From assembly GCF_024700885.2 (NCBI RefSeq), contig NZ_CP117016.1: a stretch of DNA of 64,000 bases. One strand, given 5' to 3'. Source of the stretch: Escherichia coli. GTDB taxonomy: Bacteria; Pseudomonadota; Gammaproteobacteria; Enterobacterales; Enterobacteriaceae. Positions 54,972 through 64,000 of the stretch are shown piece by piece (the first letter of the stretch is position 1; every line of letters begins with the position of its first letter). The position numbers and the translations under genes were made by a program. Under the pieces are notes generated by a model. The model made no database searches. It was given only the letters and a program-made list of their open reading frames with translations, and was not told where the DNA came from.

Positions 54972-55076
54972 ATGAGTGCAATAGAAAATTTCGATGCCCA
55001 TACGCCCATGATGCAGCAGTACCATTTTTCTATGGTTAACCTGTTGAAATTTAGCAATAAAGTGTTTGGTAAGTAG
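54972..55076 (+). pseudogene. mutS: mutS 5' fragment: first 17 codons of DNA mismatch repair protein MutS, then out-of-gene sequence and a stop
   Basis: ATGAGTGCAATAGAAAATTTCGATGCCCATACGCCCATGATGCAGCAGTA encodes MSAIENFDAHTPMMQQY (MutS N-terminus); after 55022 the sequence turns AT-rich and non-MutS (HFSMVNLLKFSNKVFGK-stop). Confidence 0.85.
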
Positions 55077-55365
55077 ACTCTGGTTTACTGATGGTATACA
55101 TAACATATAGTTATGTTAGCCAAGAACTCGAACTTAATGTGCCTAACTACAGAATGAAAAGTAACGTTGCGATACCGAAAAAATTTGGTGGCGTAAGGAA
55201 GGAATTGAAGTTCATTCATCTCCGTGAATATCTAAATCAATTTAATAACCAATTAAATAATTAGCTGGCTACAAATAACATTGATCTAATTCAATAATTT
55301 AGGATTATGTATTGGAGCTATTGAAAAAGTTGTGTTATAAAGGAAAAAAATCAAGGGAGATTAAA

Positions 55366-55635
55366 ATGTCTATCGATATCAATAAGTTAAAATCAAAATT
55401 AATTGAAGATTATAAATTCGCTGACGAGATTAGCGATGATGAAATCAATATAGTTTTAAGTGAAATACACAAAAAGGGTGCCTCAACACCAAAAGAAGTA
55501 GACGAAATTGTCTATACGGTATTAGAGGGTAAAAGGCATTATGCTTTCGAAAGTCTGGATACATCCAATACTACATCCCTTGCATTACAGTTAATTCAGG
55601 CGGCAAAGGTATATGCTCAAACACAAGGAAGATGA
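55366..55635 (+). CDS. hypothetical small acidic protein (89 aa), first gene of island cargo cluster
   Basis: SD agggaga 6 nt upstream of ATG 55366 (track ORF 55312..55635 is the same frame); no recognisable motif. Confidence 0.5.
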   Translation: MSIDINKLKSKLIEDYKFADEISDDEINIVLSEIHKKGASTPKEVDEIVYTVLEGKRHYAFESLDTSNTTSLALQLIQAAKVYAQTQGR

Positions 55636-56401
55636 AAGCATTCACATAGAGAGTAAAAAAAAACTTGATATGGAATTGCAGTTTTTAATAGATGAGATGC
55701 AAGCTGGGAAGGATAAAAACACTATTCTTCCACTGTTGAATAAACTGCAATTACAGTTTTCGATCTATGTTACTGATTTTGAAAATTTCATCGTTCGAGT
55801 TTCAGAAAATGGGTATTATCGTTCAAAAGGTGAAATAAAAGATGTTTTAATTAGCGTAGAAAATTTTTTAAATTCAAATGCAGTTGTTGCAGAAGCAATA
55901 AATACAGTTTCAAGCATATTCAATTTACCCCAATGTTATCAAGAAGGAAATTTCATAACAACTGCTCAAATAATATTAAGAACACATCAGAAAGAAAAAG
56001 CCGAGGAATTATCTCAAATTTATAAGGATAAAGGATTATCAACAAATGGCTTTGATAGTAAAGAAAAAATTTATTTGAACAGACACGGGTTTGATATGAC
56101 CAGATTTATTTCGTTTATATTAGGATTAATTTGTATACTTTATTTTTTATATGAATACAATATAGGCAATATAAACAATGGTATAAGTTGGTTTAATTAT
56201 AGATTGTTTGTTCCAACTGGATTAGGAGCAATAATATTTTCACTATTTCCGACAACCATGCAATTAAAATTTAGAGCAGGAGTGACAGCCACTGGAATTG
56301 TCGCATTTATTATATTTTTTTATACTGTCAATCCAGCAAAAGTTCCTGATTTTCAACTTCATAATATTGATAGCAATCAATCATCAGAAAAAAACAACTG
56401 A
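55613..56401 (+). CDS. hypothetical membrane-anchored protein (262 aa): about 170-aa soluble N-domain plus about 3 C-terminal TM helices
   Basis: ORF overlaps the upstream gene by 23 nt; hydrophobic segments FISFILGLICILYFLY, LGAIIFSLF, GIVAFIIFFYTV; alternative start ATG 55670. Confidence 0.6.
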   Translation: MLKHKEDESIHIESKKKLDMELQFLIDEMQAGKDKNTILPLLNKLQLQFSIYVTDFENFIVRVSENGYYRSKGEIKDVLISVENFLNSNAVVAEAINTVSSIFNLPQCYQEGNFITTAQIILRTHQKEKAEELSQIYKDKGLSTNGFDSKEKIYLNRHGFDMTRFISFILGLICILYFLYEYNIGNINNGISWFNYRLFVPTGLGAIIFSLFPTTMQLKFRAGVTATGIVAFIIFFYTVNPAKVPDFQLHNIDSNQSSEKNN

Positions 56402-56448
56402 TATCCAAGCGGATATCAGTTTAGATCTTAAAAGGAAAAAAATCCAAA

Positions 56449-56943
56449 GTGAAATTTATAGCATATGCGTTCTTGTCATTTACTATCGCACCAATAATTG
56501 GCATAATTATTGGAATTCCATTTGATAAATACTTACTCAAAAACTATCCAGTAGTTCTTTTCACAGTAATAATTATTTTCTCGTCCTTAGGAATCTACTC
56601 TCTTTACTTGTATAAAAAATCATACAAATATGTTAATGATGCTGTTTTAGCTATCTTTACTGGTTGGGTTGCATTGACATACTTACTCACGGGAGAAAAA
56701 ACAAGTGAGATAATCCCCTCGGAGAAACTAATTGAAACACACCCATTAATGTATTATCTAATAATATTAAAATTAACTATTGTTGCAAATGGGCTTTTGG
56801 CTAAGATATTTATTACATTAAACGAATTATATCATGCTCGTAAAGCTGAAAACAAAAGTGGGAAATATACTGATGTTTTAAAAATGACTATTTCCAGCAT
56901 TAAATCTTTTTTTAATTCTCAGAAGGACGGAGTCAAAAAGTAG
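56449..56943 (+). CDS. hypothetical integral membrane protein (164 aa, about 4 TM helices)
   Basis: GTG start; hydrophobic segments throughout; weak RBS. Confidence 0.5.
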   Translation: MKFIAYAFLSFTIAPIIGIIIGIPFDKYLLKNYPVVLFTVIIIFSSLGIYSLYLYKKSYKYVNDAVLAIFTGWVALTYLLTGEKTSEIIPSEKLIETHPLMYYLIILKLTIVANGLLAKIFITLNELYHARKAENKSGKYTDVLKMTISSIKSFFNSQKDGVKK

Positions 56944-57093
56944 AACAACCCCCATAGGAATTATTAATGCATTCATTGAAATAATAGCAGCAAAAACCAC
57001 TGCTAAATAATCATTCTTTGTGTCATAAAACAAAAACACAACAATATTTAAAAATAACACAAAGAGATAAAAAAGCATATCTTTAATATTCAT
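56878..57093 (-). CDS. hypothetical small hydrophobic protein (71 aa, 2 TM helices)
   Basis: Strong SD aaggagg 5 nt upstream of ATG (MNIKDMLFYLFVLFLNIVVFLF...); 3' end overlaps the convergent 56449..56943 ORF by 66 bp. Confidence 0.5.
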   Translation of the reverse strand: MNIKDMLFYLFVLFLNIVVFLFYDTKNDYLAVVFAAIISMNALIIPMGVVLLFDSVLLRIKKRFNAGNSHF

Positions 57094-57689
57094 AACAGCC
57101 TCCTTTTTTCTAATTTGATAATTTACAAATATCTTAATATAACGAAAAGTCAACTTACCCGATAAAAAATAGTTATTAGAACACCTTAAACTGATAATTA
57201 CATTAATAAATGCGAGTGATGAAATTTTTGAGTGAGATCATAAATTGTTGAGGCGTAAAGTTGTTGATATACCTGCTGTTCTGGTAAGTACTGCCATAAT
57301 AAAGGGCTGGTCTCCATCTGGTTTACTGCTTATATTTGTAGCTATGCTACTTAAGTGCTCTGTCGTTATATTGGGTATACATAATGCCCAAAAATCATTA
57401 TCGGATATTATTGAATCATCTAATAAGACGATGATTTTATTCACGAAAGATAATGCCAATGATGATGACGAAGCATTAACCAACCGTATTAATCAGATCA
57501 CAACCGAAGCTTTAACCAAACTCAGTAATAAAAAAGTTGATGCTGAAAAAACCTTGAATAAGCTCTAATGGTTGATTTTCATTGGTGTATCAGTCTGGTC
57601 TATGTTTGTTTTATATCAATTCAAAGATAACATAATCCCAGTTATTGAATTCGCCTATGAGCATATAAAGAGTTTCGTTACTTATTTAT

Positions 57690-57760
57690 TAAGCAAGGGC
57701 TAACTCATCGAAGCTCCGCTTCTTTGAGTTCCCTTGTTTTTCGCCCTTCGGTTGAAAAAG
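57690..57760. promoter_or_regulatory. candidate origin of transfer (oriT): nested inverted repeats upstream of mobC
   Basis: gcaagggctaactc ... gagttcccttg arms flanking the gaagc-tcc-gcttc hairpin, followed by cgcccttcgg; position matches oriT placement in mobC-mobA modules. Confidence 0.4.
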
Positions 57761-57784
57761 AAAGTCAAAGTCTAACCTAACTCA

Positions 57785-57812
57785 TTGACATGAATTGCAT
57801 TTCCACTATAAA
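57785..57812 (+). promoter_or_regulatory. sigma-70-like promoter for mobC-mobA
   Basis: -35 ttgaca (57785-57790), 16-nt spacer, -10 tataaa (57807-57812); strong SD aaaaaggag before mobC ATG. Confidence 0.5.
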
Positions 57813-57876
57813 TATATAATGTGTTGCAAAGGAATTGCTTACTTTAAAGCGAATAAAAATATAAAAAGGAGTTTAT

Positions 57877-58260
57877 ATGGGTAAAATAATAACATTGTCG
57901 TATACAAATAATTTTAAGCCTATTAGCGATAATAAATCTCAATCATTGCGAATACACTGTGTAAGTGTACGATTAAATAAAGAAGAGTTAGAGCTTCTCA
58001 ATGCAAGCCGTGGTGATAAACGCAAAGGTGAATGGCTTCGCATGGCATCACTTCAAAAGCTTCCTCCGACCATTCCTACAATCAATTTAGAAGTTTGGCA
58101 ATCATTGTCTGATATATCTCAAAAGCTAAACCGTCTAATAATCCACCTTGATACTAAAAGCAGTAATAGTGAACTGACGAAAACAGAGATCTTCGCTGTT
58201 AAAAAGCAGATTAAAGAGCTTCGCTCATGTCTTACAGGTTCTGATCCGTCCGTAAGGTAG
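57877..58260 (+). CDS. mobC: MobC-like relaxosome accessory protein
   Basis: 127 aa; segment VSVRLNKEELELLNASRGDKRKGEWLRMASL resembles the conserved MobC core (VRLxxEE...L...A); immediately upstream of the relaxase. Confidence 0.7.
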   Translation: MGKIITLSYTNNFKPISDNKSQSLRIHCVSVRLNKEELELLNASRGDKRKGEWLRMASLQKLPPTIPTINLEVWQSLSDISQKLNRLIIHLDTKSSNSELTKTEIFAVKKQIKELRSCLTGSDPSVR

Positions 58261-58268
58261 TTATTCGC

Positions 58269-59450
58269 ATGAAAGGAATGCAGAAGATCAAAAGGGGTAA
58301 GAGCTTCTCAGGTGTGGTTCTCTATGTGTTAAAGCCAGGCTCACACCATAGAACCGTTCCAGAAGTAATTGGTGGCAACATGACAGGTGATTGCTCACAA
58401 GAGTTAATCGACGAATTTAACCTTACGAAAGAGCTTCGCTCAGATGTGGCAAAACCTGTTTGGCACAATTCACTTCGATTACCCCAGGGAGAATCTCTTA
58501 CCAACGAACAATGGAAACGAATTGCTGACGATTACATGAAGCGAATGGGGTTCGGTGATACACACCTCCGTTGCTATGTTCTTCATGATGATCAGGCTGG
58601 TCAGCACATACACATTATTGCAAGTCGCATAGATCTCAATGGCGGGAAGCTCTACTTGGGTAGGAACGAAAACCTCATCAGCACCCGCATAATCAGTGAA
58701 CTCGAATTCGCTCATGGTCTGACAGTGACCAAGACAGCCTCTTCAATTGCACCAAAGCAACCGAAGCGGAAGAGAATCTCTCGCAACGAACAGATGCTAT
58801 CAGAACGAACTGGTGTTCCCTGCCCCAAGAAGTCCCTTCAACAGATCATAGATAAAAGTTTGGCAGATACACCTGACCTTTTAACTTTTATCAAGAGGCT
58901 GGAAGAAGCAGAAGTAGGCTGGACGGCGAATGTCGCAAGCACAGGTAAAATGAACGGGTTCTCTTTCGAATACACAGGAATAGCTTTCAAAGCTTCCCAG
59001 TTAGCCAAGAGCTATTCATGGGCAAATCTTCAAAAGCAGCTTAACTACAACCCGGATCACTTAGAAGCTCTGCGAAAGGATATACAGACCAAGGAAGTTC
59101 CTGCTCCTGTTCCTGTTCCTGTTCCTGTTCCTGTTCCTGTTCCTGTTCCTGTTCCTGCAGAACCGATAGCAAGAACGGCCGCCCAGATCGAAAGCATAAG
59201 TGAAAAAATTGCCGAACTGGAACTACGACTCAAAGAAGACAGAAGAAACGAAATCGTAGAAAAGATTCTTCAAAAGAATGCAGCCAAACAGCAAAAGCAT
59301 CTCAGGCTCACCGGCTGGATTCCCTTTTTACAACGGCTCATAGAGCTTCTCAGAAAATATGGAAGGAGCATCCTCCACAAGGTTCCTACAAACTTCTTAG
59401 AAGTCTATTCAACCCATCATCTGAAACCTACAAGAAAAATTCGTTTATAG
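58269..59450 (+). CDS. mobA: MobA/VirD2-type HUH relaxase (mobilisation nuclease)
   Basis: 393 aa; N-terminal Tyr region KSFSGVVLYVLK; three-His motif HDDQAGQHIHIIASRID; coiled-coil C-terminus. Confidence 0.85.
   Translation: MKGMQKIKRGKSFSGVVLYVLKPGSHHRTVPEVIGGNMTGDCSQELIDEFNLTKELRSDVAKPVWHNSLRLPQGESLTNEQWKRIADDYMKRMGFGDTHLRCYVLHDDQAGQHIHIIASRIDLNGGKLYLGRNENLISTRIISELEFAHGLTVTKTASSIAPKQPKRKRISRNEQMLSERTGVPCPKKSLQQIIDKSLADTPDLLTFIKRLEEAEVGWTANVASTGKMNGFSFEYTGIAFKASQLAKSYSWANLQKQLNYNPDHLEALRKDIQTKEVPAPVPVPVPVPVPVPVPVPAEPIARTAAQIESISEKIAELELRLKEDRRNEIVEKILQKNAAKQQKHLRLTGWIPFLQRLIELLRKYGRSILHKVPTNFLEVYSTHHLKPTRKIRL
59100..59159 (+). repeat. hexanucleotide tandem repeat: 8 perfect CCTGTT units (59106-59153) flanked by CCTGCT and CCTGCA
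   Basis: Encodes PAPVPVPVPVPVPVPVPVPA linker inside the relaxase. Confidence 0.95.
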
Positions 59451-59702: not shown

Positions 59703-59981
59703 ATGAATAACGAAACCATTAAGTGTCCGTTCTGCTTCAAAGAGAGCCAGTTTGGTGTCCGTGTTTGTACCGGCTGTCATTCAACCATCAAATATGGCGA
59801 AGTTTCACCTTGGTTATCTTTACTAATAGGATTTATTTTATTAGCCATTGCTTACATCATACTTTATATAAGTCAAAGTTTTTTAGTAGCTCTCGTTATT
59901 CTTTTAACATTAATGATTTCTACAAGATTGTATATTCGTAAAAAATTTGCACACAGAGCAGTTTTCACTCACCAACATTAA
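59703..59981 (+). CDS. hypothetical zinc-ribbon membrane protein (92 aa)
   Basis: N-terminal CPFC...CTGC zinc-ribbon-like pair then two TM helices; SD tggag before ATG. Confidence 0.55.
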   Translation: MNNETIKCPFCFKESQFGVRVCTGCHSTIKYGEVSPWLSLLIGFILLAIAYIILYISQSFLVALVILLTLMISTRLYIRKKFAHRAVFTHQH

Positions 59982-59999
59982 GAACAAAAGGGATTTAAC

Positions 60000-60314
60000 A
60001 TGAAAGCATATGCTATGCTAACAATCATTCTTTCTACTTTTCTATTAACTGCATGTAATAGTGAACCAAGTCAAGATGATATCTACAATGCATTCAAAAG
60101 TGTTGTAGATAAAACCAATGCCAGCATGAAAGCTTTTGATTCAAGAGTGTCAGAAAAAGACCTTTTAAAAATCGATTATGTAAAAAAAGTAAGCTGTTCG
60201 GAAGAAGCAAACAATGTTTACAACTGCATTGTCGATGCTTCTATTAGCAACAATAAACAGACGAAACCAATTAAATTAGTTAAAGCTGATGGTGTCTGGA
60301 AAGAAGTTCAGTAG
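60000..60314 (+). CDS. hypothetical lipoprotein (104 aa)
   Basis: Signal peptide with lipobox LLTAC (MKAYAMLTIILSTFLLTACNSE); SD aaggga; terminator follows. Confidence 0.6.
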   Translation: MKAYAMLTIILSTFLLTACNSEPSQDDIYNAFKSVVDKTNASMKAFDSRVSEKDLLKIDYVKKVSCSEEANNVYNCIVDASISNNKQTKPIKLVKADGVWKEVQ

Positions 60315-60894: not shown

Positions 60895-61278
60895 TTATTT
60901 TTTGTTTTTGGGAAAAATTTGATCTTCTCTAATACATTTACCATATGCAACCATTTGAAGATCTCTAACCATAAGTAGAAGCCTGTTATTTTCACTAACT
61001 AACCTCGAATTTTCTGTTTCTAATTTACTGATTTTATTCGAAGCATAGGCAAGACTTTGAGGACTTTTAATATGCTTAACAGTTTCACCTTTAGTTCTCT
61101 TTTTCTGCTGATATGCATAAGCTATTACTGTATGTCTTGAAAGAGCCTGTCTCGTTGGTTTTTTACCGAAATGATCCTCTACGGAATCACAAAGACTGAC
61201 CCAAGTTAAATCGCCTTCCCAGCCATTTATTTTATCGAGAACGAATTCAATATCTTCCTTGTTAAACTTTTTACTCAT
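60895..61278 (-). CDS. small coiled-coil protein downstream of the recombinases (TnpC-like position)
   Basis: Start at MSKKFNKEDIEF (track ORF starts 10 codons earlier); overlaps the upstream recombinase gene; C-terminal heptad-like region KISKLETENSRLVSENNRLLLMVRDLQ. Confidence 0.55.
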   Translation of the reverse strand: MSKKFNKEDIEFVLDKINGWEGDLTWVSLCDSVEDHFGKKPTRQALSRHTVIAYAYQQKKRTKGETVKHIKSPQSLAYASNKISKLETENSRLVSENNRLLLMVRDLQMVAYGKCIREDQIFPKNKK

Positions 61279-62917
61279 TATGTTCTCCTCTAAGATAATA
61301 ACTAACAATATGATTTATAATTTTACTAACTTCTTGGATTTCCTTTTCAACATAATTCGCTTTCTGTGAATTATATTGGCTTCTGTATAAATTATTCTTT
61401 TCTTCAAGCGTTTGTAAATGGTCTTTAATTTTGCAAATAATATCATCCTTACTCCCTCCACCTAAATCAGAAATCATTTCATCAGCAAATAATACTCTTC
61501 GTTCGTTTTGTCGCAACTCCTCCCAAGTTCGGTTATCATACACATTATTTTGTTCAACATTTTTCCTCCCTGACCAAAAAGCTATTTCTATATCAGAGAG
61601 CATAGCTCTTTGAGCAAGAGTGTTTAAAAGATGTCTTGGCTGATGACTACTAAAAATCTCTTTCATACCATTGGGTTGTAATGTTTTATGTCGTTGAAAA
61701 AAATTTAAGGTAGTTTCTTTTTCTGACCTTTTTTTAAAATCAGCAATAAACATCTTTTTATTTGCGGGTAAGACACAGAATAAATCAATTCCTTTCTTTA
61801 AATGTAATTGATCTTTATTTAGGATTAACAATCTATTACTAAGGTTTATAGATTTTGAAAATTCATCCCAAGATTTTGTTTTATCGCTATAATTAAAAAC
61901 TTCATTCCAAAATTCTTTTGCACTAAGAATCCCACTCTCTACCCTCATTAATATATTTTTAGTTTTAACATTGAAGCAGTCCATACAGTTTAGATTTAAA
62001 AGCTTATACAACTTTGTATGAAAATATCGTCCATTCTCATCAGTCTCTAAACTCTTATAAAACTCCAATTCTCCTTTTTCTCGTAGGGTAGCTATGCACC
62101 TTGCCGTTTGTGATAATACCCTTAATCTTTTAATGGCTAATTTTGCTATTGAATGCATATTCCTTGGAATCCACTTTATACTTTCACCATAGCCTTTTGC
62201 ACTATGATAACGAATGCCATAGGAGCCTTTCCCCTCTATGTCGTTCCCTTCAACTTCACAATCCACCTCAAGACTCAGGACTTCTGATATTCGTGTTGGA
62301 GCACAAAGAAGCAGTGCGATGATAGATGTTGTAAATATATCTCTTTGGCTTTTATCATTAGAACTAAAAACCCTACCAACAAGATCTATGACTTCCTCTT
62401 CTGGTAACTTATTTTTAATTTCTTTTTGCCCTATAAGATCTCTTACAGCTTTATTTCTAATTATTCTAAGCCTGGAGTTAAACTTACTTAATTTTGGATT
62501 TATTATGTTATTTATAGCTAACACTTCTAAAATATTCTTTAATGCCTTTTCAATAGCCCCCGCACGACTATTAGAATATTTCTTTTCTACTTGGAATAAA
62601 ATGTTGTTGATAACCTCAGAATTAATATTAACAATATGTGGTTCTACATTCAAAGTGAAGAATGAACTTTCCATAATTTTTATGACCGCCAAATAAAGTA
62701 ATGATTTACTGAGATTAGGGAAACACTCTCTATATATAATAACCTTTGATAATTGTTGAAAATGCGCTCCCATGTCTTTATCTTTTTTTATATGATTGTT
62801 ATTTTTAAATGAAACCCCTCTACCCCATGACAAATCATCCCAATTTATAATATTTTCTTTTTTTGCCTGTATCCTTACTTCATTAGCTAAAACATCATAA
62901 TTATTATAATGACTCAT
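61271..62917 (-). CDS. tyrosine recombinase, large (548 aa; Tn554 TnpB-like size and position)
   Basis: Catalytic region HQPRHLLNTLAQRAMLSDIEIAFWSGRKNVEQNNVYDNR (HxxR ... Y); box I candidate PTRISEVLSL; 14-nt overlap with upstream recombinase. Confidence 0.8.
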   Translation of the reverse strand: MSHYNNYDVLANEVRIQAKKENIINWDDLSWGRGVSFKNNNHIKKDKDMGAHFQQLSKVIIYRECFPNLSKSLLYLAVIKIMESSFFTLNVEPHIVNINSEVINNILFQVEKKYSNSRAGAIEKALKNILEVLAINNIINPKLSKFNSRLRIIRNKAVRDLIGQKEIKNKLPEEEVIDLVGRVFSSNDKSQRDIFTTSIIALLLCAPTRISEVLSLEVDCEVEGNDIEGKGSYGIRYHSAKGYGESIKWIPRNMHSIAKLAIKRLRVLSQTARCIATLREKGELEFYKSLETDENGRYFHTKLYKLLNLNCMDCFNVKTKNILMRVESGILSAKEFWNEVFNYSDKTKSWDEFSKSINLSNRLLILNKDQLHLKKGIDLFCVLPANKKMFIADFKKRSEKETTLNFFQRHKTLQPNGMKEIFSSHQPRHLLNTLAQRAMLSDIEIAFWSGRKNVEQNNVYDNRTWEELRQNERRVLFADEMISDLGGGSKDDIICKIKDHLQTLEEKNNLYRSQYNSQKANYVEKEIQEVSKIINHIVSYYLRGEHNE

Positions 62918-63881
62918 TATTCATGCCCTCCTTGTTGAGCAATTCGATTATTTTATTTATTTTACATTCTAACATTGTGAATAAGTCCGTTAGGATTTCA
63001 AAGTCTGCTTGCTTCGTATAATCTGCTATTAATACTCCAGTAAGCTTTTTTATGATTATCAAATCGTCAACCAATCTAAGGGTAATGTCGTCACTGTTTT
63101 TTAAAAATGAGGAAATATAAGGGCTTACTAACTCATTTATTGCCTGATCTATTCTGAATGAAAACTCTTCATTGTTTTTTGCATACGACAATACTGATTT
63201 CAAATTGCTATGATCTAAAGCTTTTGCTATCGTACCTAATCCATAACCTTTAAGTGCAAGCCTTGTGGCTAATGTAACCCTAAGTTGCCGAGAGTTAATC
63301 TTTTTATTTTTATCTTTACTTACCCTTTGGCAAATGGCCTGAACCCTACCGGTTATCCTCTTAGAACTCATATGCAAATTGAAGAAGTTATTTTCATATA
63401 ATTTATCAAGTTTGTAAGTCGAGTTAAAAAAACAAGGATCAATAAAGAGGGGTAAATTGTTTAATTCATCTTCACTTAATATATCGCCTACCTCACCCTG
63501 CACAAAAACCTTAACTACTGATTTAAGCTCTGATAGTGAATTGAACAAATTATCCCCTATACGCAATTCGGAAAAATCAGTTCTGAAACTATCTCCTTGT
63601 TTTAATCTGGGTATGTTTAAAAAATTACCATTTTCTTTGATATAAAGATCCTTCCTTTTTAATTGAGCGATCTGCATTGGTCTTCGCCCCGAATATATCA
63701 TCAGCATGACTAAAAGGTAGTCATTCATAGTCATATTTCCATCATTGTATTCCTTTGTCATGCCCCCAATTAGGTTCTTCAGTTCGTATTCAGATAATGG
63801 TCTTAAAGACTCTTTTCGCTCAATATATGCAGTTGTCTTGTTGGGTTTAGTTACTTTCCATTTTAAAATCAAATCCAGCAT
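62904..63881 (-). CDS. tyrosine recombinase, small (325 aa; Tn554 TnpA-like size and position)
   Basis: Box I YSGRRPMQIAQLKRKDL; box II/Tyr region LRVTLATRLALKGYGLGTIAKALDHSNLKSVLSYAKN. Confidence 0.8.
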   Translation of the reverse strand: MLDLILKWKVTKPNKTTAYIERKESLRPLSEYELKNLIGGMTKEYNDGNMTMNDYLLVMLMIYSGRRPMQIAQLKRKDLYIKENGNFLNIPRLKQGDSFRTDFSELRIGDNLFNSLSELKSVVKVFVQGEVGDILSEDELNNLPLFIDPCFFNSTYKLDKLYENNFFNLHMSSKRITGRVQAICQRVSKDKNKKINSRQLRVTLATRLALKGYGLGTIAKALDHSNLKSVLSYAKNNEEFSFRIDQAINELVSPYISSFLKNSDDITLRLVDDLIIIKKLTGVLIADYTKQADFEILTDLFTMLECKINKIIELLNKEGMNNESL

Positions 63882-64000
63882 TTCTTGATCTATGAATTCA
63901 TTATTTAACTCATAATGTTTTATTATAAAATACTTTAAACTTTCAACATGTGTATAGCTTATTTTATAATATGCATTGTAAAATCTATTTAGTAATCCAT

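What the first reader, a model, noticed from the sequence alone, without database searches (positions are those of the whole stretch)
55366..57093. Uncharacterised cargo cluster of four small and membrane proteins: best candidate for an undescribed system
At the mutS-proximal end of the island, three co-directional ORFs are tightly packed: an 89-aa acidic protein; a 262-aa protein with a soluble N-domain and C-terminal TM helices, overlapping the first by 23 nt; and a 164-aa four-TM protein. A convergent 71-aa two-TM ORF with a strong SD follows. I recognise no catalytic or family motif in any of them. A soluble domain fused or paired to membrane-spanning partners on a mobile element resembles many abortive-infection, exclusion or toxin-immunity modules, but the function is unknown.
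Basis: inference. Interest (0 to 1): 0.75.

Follow-up and report, generated by a model that had tools for sequence, protein, structure and literature searches.

The report
Unnamed two-gene membrane module, likely defence
The cluster is real. Its conserved core is an uncharacterised gene pair, a small soluble protein plus a three-pass inner-membrane protein, that recurs in phage-defence islands and in prophage accessory sites of distant bacteria, so it is a good but untested candidate for a new anti-phage system.

Summary
All four ORFs exist as described: A 55366-55635, B 55613-56401 (23-nt overlap with A), C 56449-56943, and D 56878-57093 on the minus strand. All four are under purifying selection.

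They are not one four-gene unit. The conserved unit is A+B. An A-family gene of 80-109 aa lies directly upstream of a B-family gene of 230-430 aa in 14 of 14 loci examined, from E. coli, Pectobacterium, Proteus, Pseudomonas, Salinivibrio and Campylobacter. C and D occur only beside the closest A-B relatives, and each is frameshifted in some of them.

A and B match no Pfam, NCBIfam, PADLOC or PDB family. B matches only PHROG 5814, which has no known function. B is predicted to have a cytoplasmic helical-bundle N-domain, three TM helices, and a conserved NP(A) motif with a periplasmic tail.

The window copy sits in the cargo slot of a mobilisable, recombinase-trio island inserted in the 5' end of mutS. 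Sister islands carry retron Ec48, a ThiF/JAB system, an HNH nuclease or DUF4760/Hxs/Gabija-like genes in that slot. Other A-B pairs sit next to Hachiman+DarT or a type II-A retron. Others sit between the tail-fibre-assembly and sheath genes of a P2-like phage, in a Campylobacter prophage, and at the end of a filamentous prophage.

Best reading: a new MGE-borne anti-phage or exclusion module with a membrane effector. This rests on context only. Function is untested.

The parts
54973..55024 (+). First 17 codons of mutS (MSAIENFDAHTPMMQQY), followed by island sequence. The left junction of the low-GC island lies at about 55021.
   Evidence: Sequence read. Genomes without the island match the query only up to window position about 55021, and mutS is annotated there. 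GC content drops from about 0.5 to about 0.3 at 55000.
55084..55111 (+). Promoter-like site (TTTACT-16-TATAGT) inside the island, upstream of A. This is a weak consensus match only.
   Evidence: The region holds fewer promoter-like sites than its shuffles, so this is only a candidate.
55366..55635 (+). Gene A: 89 aa, acidic in this lineage (pI 5.06), soluble, predicted four-helix protein. Conserved partner of B.
   Evidence: dN/dS 0.07-0.26; 23 sequence clusters; AF2 pLDDT 74, four helices; upstream of B in 14 of 14 loci.
55613..56401 (+). Gene B: 262 aa. About 155 aa of cytoplasmic helical-bundle domain, three TM helices (about 162-184, 190-211, 224-242), a conserved Y..NP(A) motif and a periplasmic tail. 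Putative membrane effector.
   Evidence: PHROG 5814, E 2.5e-10; 37 representatives; invariant G146, G171, P241; nearly invariant E57, F147, R197, A226, G228, Y237, N240; AF2 pLDDT 84; positive-inside pattern.
56396..56421 (-). 11-bp-stem hairpin overlapping B's stop codon, followed by T7 on the minus strand. Terminator-like for transcripts coming from D, which would be antisense to all of C.
   Evidence: Only partly conserved in relatives.
56449..56943 (+). Gene C: 164 aa, GTG start, multi-pass membrane protein with a basic C-terminal tail. Lineage-specific accessory gene.
   Evidence: dN/dS 0.19; only 4 clusters; frameshifted in Pectobacterium L004/L005; no Pfam match.
56878..57093 (-). Gene D: 71 aa, two-TM protein, convergent with C, strong Shine-Dalgarno. 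Lineage-specific accessory gene not annotated by PGAP.
   Evidence: dN/dS 0.19-0.31 in frame; shifted control frames 0.32-2.3 (five of six >=1); intact in the window, L009 and L004/5; frameshifted in L007/8.
57245..57703 (+). Two ORF fragments (107 aa and 43 aa) forming the 3' remnant of a 419-aa gene. In related elements that gene is intact and follows an NA37-family gene. Pseudogene, not part of the module.
   Evidence: tblastn (matches L007 13630-14079, inside the 419-aa gene).
57877..59450 (+). Mobilisation genes of the carrier island: a 127-aa accessory protein and a MobP-type relaxase. The cargo slot lies between the left junction and these genes.
   Evidence: TraI/MobA(P) relaxase model, E 1.8e-18; homologues in sister elements.

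Best explanation
The functional unit is the translationally coupled pair A+B. It is a previously undescribed cassette carried by MGEs and prophages that most likely protects the host against incoming phage, or other invading DNA, by acting at the inner membrane.

Shown by computation: B is an inner-membrane protein with a cytoplasmic N-terminal helical-bundle domain, three TM helices and a periplasmic C-terminus. A is a small soluble helical protein that is always encoded immediately upstream.

Inferred mechanism: A binds the cytoplasmic domain of B and acts as its sensor or inhibitor. An infection cue changes the A-B interaction. B then oligomerises through its conserved TM region (R197, the ITAxG motif, Y..NP(A)) and makes the membrane leaky, giving abortive infection as with RexB, the retron Ec48 2TM effector or JukB. 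A less likely alternative is that B blocks DNA entry without killing the cell.

C and D are accessory membrane proteins of one sublineage, possibly modulators. They are not required parts.

My probability for a defence or exclusion function of any kind is about 0.6. For the specific 'A-controlled membrane-permeabilising effector' version it is about 0.4.
For: (1) Strict linkage. An A-family gene lies directly upstream of a B-family gene in 14 of 14 loci, from a 23-nt overlap to a 25-nt gap. B identity across these loci falls to about 20-28%.

(2) Cargo-slot exchange. In sister islands, the slot upstream of the mobilisation genes holds retron Ec48 (RT plus a type IV 2TM effector), a 447-aa HNH nuclease, a ThiF+JAB cassette, or DUF4760 with HxsABCD and Gabija-like genes.

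(3) Neighbours of distant A-B pairs:
- Hachiman HamA/HamB plus DarT in Pseudomonas.
- A type II-A retron (RT+NDT) plus an OLD/AriA-like ATPase in Proteus.
- A methyltransferase and PIN/MazE.
- An integrase island in Salinivibrio.

(4) Prophage accessory sites:
- Between the tail-fibre-assembly and sheath genes of a P2-like phage.
- Between the regulatory region and the tape-measure gene of a Campylobacter prophage.
- At the end of a filamentous prophage, next to its replication gene, present in 22 of 5426 complete E. coli genomes.

(5) Membrane architecture. AF2 pLDDT is 84 with hydrophobic helices. The positive-inside pattern across 36 homologues fits N-in, three TM, C-out. One homologue carries a C-terminal CarboxypepD_reg-like extension.

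(6) The strongest conservation is in the juxtamembrane and TM region. The first 40 residues of B are the most variable. That pattern fits a conserved effector with a variable recognition surface.

Against: - No functional data exist. The argument is guilt by association.
- Neither protein matches any of the 5027 PADLOC models at E<=1.
- The JukB resemblance is weak. Designed helical bundles score almost as high. Foldseek finds nothing significant (best E 2.6) and does not list JukB.
- The family is rare: 37 representatives among 1.84 billion.
- No interaction between A and B was modelled.
- A is acidic only in some lineages (pI 4.6-9.8).
- The window-type cassette was not found in IMG/VR viral contigs.
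Confidence: 0.4

Rival explanations
1. Non-lethal superinfection exclusion or entry block. B sits in the inner membrane and prevents genome injection or uptake. It might do this by occluding an inner-membrane channel or a pilus or secretion component used by incoming phage or by the conjugative machinery. A would act as its chaperone or assembly factor. The cell survives.
For: - The cassette sits in prophage accessory positions expressed in lysogens: a P2-like phage, a Campylobacter prophage and a filamentous prophage.
- Classic Sie proteins are small inner-membrane proteins encoded by prophages (established knowledge).
- B has a periplasmic tail and a conserved periplasm-facing loop with R197.
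Against: - The cassette is also found in non-phage islands among cytoplasm-acting defence systems.
- B has a large conserved cytoplasmic domain, and its soluble partner is strictly conserved. Known single-gene Sie proteins have neither.
- There are no functional data.
Confidence: 0.2
2. A toxin-antitoxin-like addiction module that stabilises its mobile element. B is a membrane toxin and A is a labile antitoxin encoded upstream. There is no dedicated anti-phage role.
For: - The gene order and the overlap of a small upstream gene with a larger downstream gene resemble type II TA operons.
- The cassette is always on MGEs or in islands.
- The window island and its decayed Pectobacterium relative retain A-B even where neighbouring genes have decayed.
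Against: - A shows no DNA-binding fold of the kind typical of type II antitoxins, and no TA family matches it.
- The cassette occupies the same exchangeable slot as defence systems rather than a fixed maintenance position.
- Many TA-like modules are themselves defence systems, so this rival overlaps with the best explanation.
Confidence: 0.15
3. A lysogenic-conversion or fitness factor unrelated to defence, for example an envelope, transport or host-interaction function. This would resemble the fitness effects reported for CUS-1/YpfPhi-type filamentous prophages.
For: - A-B homologues are carried by a filamentous prophage of E. coli and Salmonella.
- The YpfPhi/CUS-1 review reports two ORFs of unknown function at that end of these phages. 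It also reports a modest in-vivo fitness contribution of the prophage (PMC4266046).
- B carries an NP(A) motif at a helix end, which is reminiscent of channel proteins. This is a resemblance from memory, not a test.
Against: - The defence-island neighbourhoods and the slot exchange with retron and ThiF/JAB cassettes are not expected for a transport or virulence factor.
- No transporter family matches.
- Identity of the L017 pair with the published YPO2271/2272 or orf1/orf1a ORFs was not verified by sequence.
Confidence: 0.1
4. One reading: A, B, C and D together form one four-component system.
For: - The four genes are packed within 1.73 kb.
- C and D are under purifying selection.
- The order A-B-C(-D) is kept in close relatives in three different elements.
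- An identical 14-mer lies upstream of both the A and C start codons.
Against: - C and D are absent from all A-B loci with B identity of 64% or lower.
- C is frameshifted in Pectobacterium while A, B and D are intact. D is frameshifted in L007/8 while A, B and C are intact.
- C has only four sequence clusters.
Confidence: 0.1

Closest known systems
JukAB (jumbo phage killer) of Pseudomonas aeruginosa
   Same: - Both are two-gene operons with a soluble partner encoded upstream of an effector of about 260 aa.
- JukB is described as recruited by JukA and forming pores on the early phage infection vesicle (PMC13282480).
   Different: - A is unrelated to JukA/YaaW (hhalign probability 0.5%; no Pfam match).
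- PADLOC-DB contains Juk models: K-12 YaaW hits its JukA models. Neither A nor B hits any PADLOC model.
- Foldseek does not recover JukB.
- B has three predicted TM helices and is probably a constitutive membrane protein.
Retron Ec48 (type IV retron with 2TM effector)
   Same: It occupies the same cargo slot in a sister island: ygbA junction, then cargo, then the mobilisation genes. It also pairs a cytoplasmic sensing component with a small inner-membrane effector that causes abortive infection (established knowledge).
   Different: There is no reverse transcriptase and no retron ncRNA (Rfam). B shows no similarity to the Ec48 effector (BLASTP E 33).
RexA/RexB of phage lambda
   Same: Both are prophage-borne two-gene exclusion systems pairing a soluble partner with a multi-pass inner-membrane protein. 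In Rex the membrane protein depolarises the cell on infection (established knowledge). This is the closest functional analogy.
   Different: There is no sequence match to any PADLOC model. The size relation is reversed: here the soluble protein is the small one and the membrane protein carries the large cytoplasmic domain.
PHROG 5814 (phage protein family of unknown function)
   Same: B residues 116-243 match profile positions 106-229 of 230 at E 2.5e-10. The 230-aa filamentous-prophage protein P0035/P0061 aligns over the same range.
   Different: The family has no annotated function. The N-terminal half of B is not covered by the match.
Gamma-Mobile-Trio (GMT) islands (carrier element, not the cassette)
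   Same: - The window island ends in three consecutive genes: two tyrosine recombinases plus a third large protein. It has a variable, defence-rich cargo.
- It is inserted inside a gene (mutS), leaving a 17-codon 5' remnant at the left junction.
- The GMT paper describes intragenic insertions with a homologue of the disrupted gene, and defence-rich cargo (10.1101/2023.03.28.534373).
   Different: Membership was not tested with GmtX/Y/Z profiles. The third protein (548 aa) has no Pfam or NCBIfam match. This island also carries a relaxase, and the GMT paper does not mention one.

Membership tests
JukAB | Sensor of the JukA/YaaW family | tested here: not met
   The A-family profile against E. coli YaaW gives hhalign probability 0.5%. 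No PADLOC hit for A at E<=1, although the library's JukA models recognise YaaW. No Pfam family for 24 A homologues.
JukAB | Effector homologous to JukB | tested here: inconclusive
Retron (type IV, Ec48-like) | Reverse transcriptase plus msr/msd ncRNA plus 2TM effector | tested here: not met
   No RT ORF in 55022-57877. No Rfam match at E<=1. B against the Ec48 effector gives BLASTP E 33.
Any system in PADLOC-DB v2.0.0 (a 2023 library of known and candidate anti-phage systems) | Profile match of at least one component | tested here: not met
   Zero families at E<=1 for A, B, C, D and the 57245-57568 ORF.
Type II toxin-antitoxin module | Small upstream gene overlapping a larger downstream gene, co-transcribed | tested here: met
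   A 23-nt overlap in the window. Overlap or a gap of at most 25 nt in 14 of 14 loci.
Type II toxin-antitoxin module | Toxicity of the downstream protein, neutralised by the upstream protein; antitoxin with a DNA-binding domain | not testable with these tools
PHROG 5814 | Significant match to the family profile | tested here: met
   E 2.5e-10, 41.4 bits. B residues 116-243 match profile positions 106-229 of 230.
Defence-island gene (operational criterion: recurrent neighbourhood of known defence genes or an MGE hotspot) | Homologues repeatedly adjacent to known defence systems, or in variable MGE slots | tested here: met
   Adjacent to Hachiman+DarT, to a type II-A retron with an OLD-like ATPase, and to PIN/MazE. 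Sister-island slots hold Ec48, ThiF/JAB, HNH and Gabija-like genes. Also in accessory sites of a P2-like phage, a Campylobacter prophage and a filamentous prophage. This is a small, non-random sample of 12 lookups, not a statistical enrichment test.
GMT island (carrier element) | GmtY, GmtZ and GmtX in tandem | not tested
   Only the gene order was seen: two tyrosine recombinases plus a third protein. One integrase model matched. No GMT profiles were available.

The most novel reading that the evidence does not exclude
A+B is a previously undescribed two-protein immune system with no homology to any catalogued defence family. Its three-TM effector, with an NP(A)-capped last helix, forms a regulated inner-membrane pore controlled by a four-helix partner of about 90 aa. 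The same cassette is shuttled between filamentous phages, P2-like and other myovirus prophages, mobilisable recombinase-trio islands and chromosomal defence islands across Gammaproteobacteria and Campylobacter. It may also account for one of the pairs of 'no predicted function' ORFs at the ends of CUS-1/YpfPhi-type prophages.
Probability: 0.4. Interest if true: 0.7.

Novelty: new variant of a known kind. Interest (0 to 1): 0.6.

Why it matters
If the pair is an anti-phage or exclusion system, it adds a new effector/partner family to the catalogue. It is small (about 1.05 kb), easy to clone and has a clear testable core. Its spread would show direct cassette exchange between very different mobile elements: inoviruses, P2-like and Campylobacter prophages, mobilisable islands and defence islands. 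It would also assign a function to accessory ORFs of filamentous prophages of pathogenic E. coli and Salmonella that have stayed unexplained. Finally, the result shows that the slot between the mutS junction and the mobilisation genes of this island family is a defence-cargo hotspot worth mining.

Tried and rejected
- PADLOC, NCBIfam and Pfam scans of A, B, C and D, and PADLOC/NCBIfam scans of the 57245-57568 ORF, found nothing. Only PHROG 5814 matched B.
- PDB sequence-profile searches returned only low-complexity helical or designed proteins, judged meaningless.
- B against the Ec48 effector shows no similarity.
- The search for related loci with the family alignments failed because no stretch was conserved enough. 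The window-type B is absent from IMG/VR. The P2-type gave only three identical loci.
- Plasmid collection: one marginal hit only. Phage collection: no hit for the window B. The filamentous prophage is not in the phage collection.
- Literature searches by WP accession gave nothing. The ygbA/mutS hotspot search gave nothing relevant. The P2/P4 hotspot papers do not describe this pair. Rousset's P2 hotspot is the old/tin locus, not the site found here.
- Rfam found no RNA family in 54600-58300.
- The PGAP ORF at 57245-57568 was rejected as a fifth member. It is a gene remnant.
Full report
**1. Setting**

The window is an E. coli chromosome running hyc-hyp-fhlA, then a TOBE-domain gene, then ygbA. 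At about 55000 the GC content falls from about 0.5 to about 0.3 and stays low to the end of the window.

Positions 54973-55024 encode the first 17 residues of MutS (MSAIENFDAHTPMMQQY), followed by unrelated sequence. E. coli genomes without the island match the query only up to window position about 55021, where mutS is annotated. The low-GC DNA is therefore an island inserted in the 5' end of mutS, and the cluster lies at its left, ygbA-side end.

The island carries:
- a 127-aa mobilisation accessory gene and a MobP-type relaxase (57877-59450);
- several small genes;
- on the minus strand, a 548-aa protein and two tyrosine recombinases.

The whole region is 100% identical in E. coli MLI114. 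Only 2 of 5426 complete E. coli genomes hold the cluster. The exact B protein is nevertheless recorded on 126 contigs in the larger collection, and close relatives occur in Klebsiella variicola and Proteus.

**2. The observation**

| Gene | Coordinates | Strand | Length | Notes |
|---|---|---|---|---|
| A | 55366-55635 | + | 89 aa | pI 5.06 |
| B | 55613-56401 | + | 262 aa | overlaps A by 23 nt |
| C | 56449-56943 | + | 164 aa | GTG start |
| D | 56878-57093 | - | 71 aa | AAGGAGG 5 nt before its ATG |

Comparison with relatives at 64-89% protein identity gives dN/dS of 0.07-0.26 (A), 0.10-0.19 (B) and 0.19 (C). For the part of D that does not overlap C it is 0.19-0.31. The shifted control frames gave 0.32-2.3, with five of six comparisons >=1. 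All four are therefore real coding genes, including D, which PGAP does not annotate.

The ORF that PGAP does annotate after C (57245-57568), together with the next 43-aa ORF, matches the C-terminal third of a 419-aa gene. In related elements that gene is intact and follows an NA37-family gene. It is a deletion remnant.

**3. What is conserved**

A word-indexed search found only six close B relatives. A full HMMER profile search of 1.84 billion representatives found 37 at E<=1e-3. Nearly all are 230-280 aa and align over their full length.

I looked up or located 14 loci representing about 12 lineages. In every one, a gene of 80-109 aa belonging to the same A family lies immediately upstream of B. 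The spacing runs from a 23-nt overlap to a 25-nt gap. The A family itself has 23 sequence clusters.

C, by contrast, has only four clusters, all next to close A-B relatives. In detail:
- C is frameshifted in Pectobacterium, where A, B and D are intact.
- C is replaced by an unrelated 193-aa protein in L010.
- C is absent from all more distant loci.
- D is intact in the window, L009 and Pectobacterium, but frameshifted in L007/L008.

The unit under selection is therefore A+B. C and D are accessory genes of one sublineage.

**4. The proteins**

Neither A nor B matches Pfam, NCBIfam, PADLOC or any PDB sequence in a meaningful way. B residues 116-243 match PHROG 5814, a family of unknown function, at E 2.5e-10.

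AlphaFold2 with a 36-sequence alignment gives a confident B model (pLDDT 84):
- three long helices (3-30, 35-64, 72-102);
- short helices up to residue 148;
- hydrophobic helices at 162-184 and 190-211;
- a small hairpin, then a last helix at 229-239.

Across the family, net charge is +2.1 before TM1, -0.1 in loop 1, +2.1 in loop 2 and -0.8 in the tail. By the positive-inside rule this gives an N-in, three-TM, C-out topology. One homologue has a C-terminal CarboxypepD_reg-like extension, a domain usually found outside the cytoplasm. That fits the predicted topology.

Invariant or nearly invariant residues are E57, G146/F147 (the LPxxGF motif just before TM1), G171, R197, A226/G228 (ITAxG) and Y237/N240/P241 (Y..NP(A)). 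The first 40 residues are the least conserved.

**5. The JukB lead**

This lead is weak for four reasons:
- Designed helical bundles score 9-9.7 in the same list.
- Foldseek finds nothing significant (best E 2.6) and does not list JukB.
- PADLOC-DB does contain Juk models: K-12 YaaW hits its JukA models at E 1e-57. Neither A nor B hits any PADLOC model.
- The A profile is unrelated to YaaW (hhalign probability 0.5%).

The pair is therefore not a Juk system. At most, B shares a generic helical-bundle resemblance with pore formers.

**6. Context**

Context is the main evidence for function.

(a) Sister islands share the window's mobilisation genes and recombinases but differ in the slot upstream of the mobilisation genes. 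That slot holds one of the following:
- retron Ec48, with its RT and a 2TM effector that matches the PADLOC 2TM_IV model;
- a 447-aa HNH endonuclease;
- a ThiF adenylyltransferase plus a JAB/MPN protein;
- DUF4760, HxsABCD and a Gabija-like nuclease/helicase pair.

In MLI114, a Gabija GajB homologue also lies just beyond the island.

(b) Distant A-B pairs have these neighbours:
- Pseudomonas: next to Hachiman HamA/HamB and DarT/NADAR.
- Proteus/Morganellaceae: next to a type II-A retron (RT+NDT) and an OLD/AriA-like ATPase-TOPRIM. This occurs at an smpB island or beside a prophage integrase.
- One metagenomic contig: next to a methyltransferase and PIN/MazE.
- Salinivibrio/Vibrio: near an integrase.

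(c) Prophage accessory sites:
- A P2-like phage carries the pair between the tail-fibre-assembly gene and the sheath gene FI. From my own knowledge this is the Z/fun accessory position of P2. It is not the old/tin hotspot analysed by Rousset et al..
- A Campylobacter myovirus prophage carries it between the regulatory region and the tape-measure gene.
- A filamentous prophage of E. coli and Salmonella carries a 91-aa/230-aa pair at the end next to its replication gene. It is recognised by its Zot, G3P, G8P, G5P and CRI genes and often occurs in tandem copies. It is present in 22 of 5426 complete E. coli genomes.

A review of YpfPhi/CUS-1 states that these phages carry, at each end, two ORFs without predicted function (PMC4266046). 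The position of the L017 pair corresponds to the attL-side pair. I could not verify that identity by sequence.

**7. Mechanism**

Shown by computation:
- a strictly linked, translationally coupled pair;
- B is membrane-anchored with a large cytoplasmic domain;
- conservation is highest in the TM and juxtamembrane part;
- the cassette lies in defence-type contexts.

Inferred: A binds the cytoplasmic bundle of B and gates it. An infection cue releases or activates B. B then oligomerises and permeabilises or depolarises the inner membrane, giving abortive infection as with RexB, the Ec48 2TM protein, CBASS/Pycsar TM effectors or JukB.

My estimates:

| Reading | Probability |
|---|---|
| Any defence or exclusion role | about 0.6 |
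| Gated membrane-damage version | about 0.4 |
| Non-lethal entry block | about 0.2 |
| Addiction-only toxin-antitoxin | about 0.15 |
| Unrelated conversion or fitness function | about 0.1 |

The first row contains the next two. The four-gene version is unlikely (about 0.1).

One local detail concerns C and D. An 11-bp hairpin overlaps B's stop codon and is followed by T7 on the minus strand (56396-56421). It would terminate transcripts starting at D after they have run antisense through all of C. The hairpin is only partly conserved. C and D may regulate each other, but this is speculative.

**8. Novelty and limits**

No library available here names these families, and no paper in the searchable corpus cites their accessions. 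PADLOC-DB here dates from 2023, so a later description cannot be excluded.

The concept, an MGE-borne sensor or partner with a membrane effector, is a known kind. The protein families and the architecture are new: a tiny soluble partner, and an effector carrying its own large cytoplasmic domain and an NP(A)-capped third TM helix. I therefore rate it a new variant of a known kind. It is a solid but purely contextual candidate, with interest 0.6.

Noticed in passing
window 57245-57703: The ORF that PGAP annotates as a 107-aa hypothetical protein, plus the adjacent 43-aa ORF, is the 3' remnant of a 419-aa gene. In related elements (L007, L009) that gene follows an NA37 nucleoid-associated-protein gene. 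The window island has lost NA37 and about two thirds of the 419-aa gene.
   Followed up: yes
window 54973-55024: The first 17 codons of mutS are left as a stub at the island's left junction, so the island is inserted inside the 5' end of mutS. The intact mutS must lie beyond the island, outside the window.
   Followed up: partly
L002, L003, L032, L033 (sister islands), slot upstream of the mobC-like gene: The same slot holds retron Ec48, a 447-aa HNH endonuclease with no PADLOC match, a ThiF+JAB/MPN cassette, or DUF4760 with HxsABCD and a Gabija-like pair. It is a defence-cargo hotspot of a mobilisable island family found at mutS and at ssrA.
   Followed up: partly
window 61271-64000 and L001 18296-22909: The island ends in three consecutive large genes: a 548-aa protein without any Pfam or NCBIfam match, then two tyrosine recombinases. 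A gene of about 127 aa lies next to them. The layout, the intragenic insertion and the defence-rich cargo resemble Gamma-Mobile-Trio islands. Membership was not tested.
   Followed up: partly
window 55339-55352 and 56431-56444: An identical 14-mer, AAAGGAAAAAAATC, lies just upstream of the start codons of both A and C. It could be a shared translational or regulatory element, or a chance match in AT-rich DNA.
   Followed up: no
window 56396-56421: A perfect 11-bp-stem hairpin overlaps B's stop codon, with T7 on the minus strand. It would end a D transcript that is antisense to the whole of C. It is only partly conserved in relatives.
   Followed up: partly
window about 59050-59130 (inside the relaxase gene 58269-59450): The relaxase contains a run of (Val-Pro) repeats (PAPVPVPVPVPVPVPVPVPVPAEP). 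This dinucleotide-codon repeat is likely to vary in length between strains.
   Followed up: no
window 53835-54302: A TOBE-domain (molybdate-binding type) gene lies between fhlA and ygbA in this strain. It is absent from the corresponding position in the genomes of L002 and L003.
   Followed up: no
L001 23082-27701 (E. coli MLI114, beyond the window): Directly after the island's recombinases come tRNA-Asp and tRNA-Val genes and a Gabija-like pair (ATP-dependent nuclease plus a GajB helicase). This suggests a second island, or an extended defence region, before mutS.
   Followed up: no
L017-L020 (E. coli/Salmonella filamentous prophage), 5714-6693: A 91-aa/230-aa A-B homologue pair sits at the end of a CUS-1/YpfPhi-like inovirus, often in tandem prophage copies. 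Its position matches the 'two ORFs of unknown function' reported for these phages. Some database entries mislabel the small protein as S-(hydroxymethyl)glutathione dehydrogenase.
   Followed up: partly
window 59703-60314: Two small island genes lie downstream of the relaxase. One is a 92-aa protein with an N-terminal Cys-rich (CxxC...CxxC) motif and hydrophobic segments. The other is a 104-aa lipoprotein-like protein. A differently sized protein at the corresponding position in L003 is annotated as a SEN1984-family lipoprotein.
   Followed up: no
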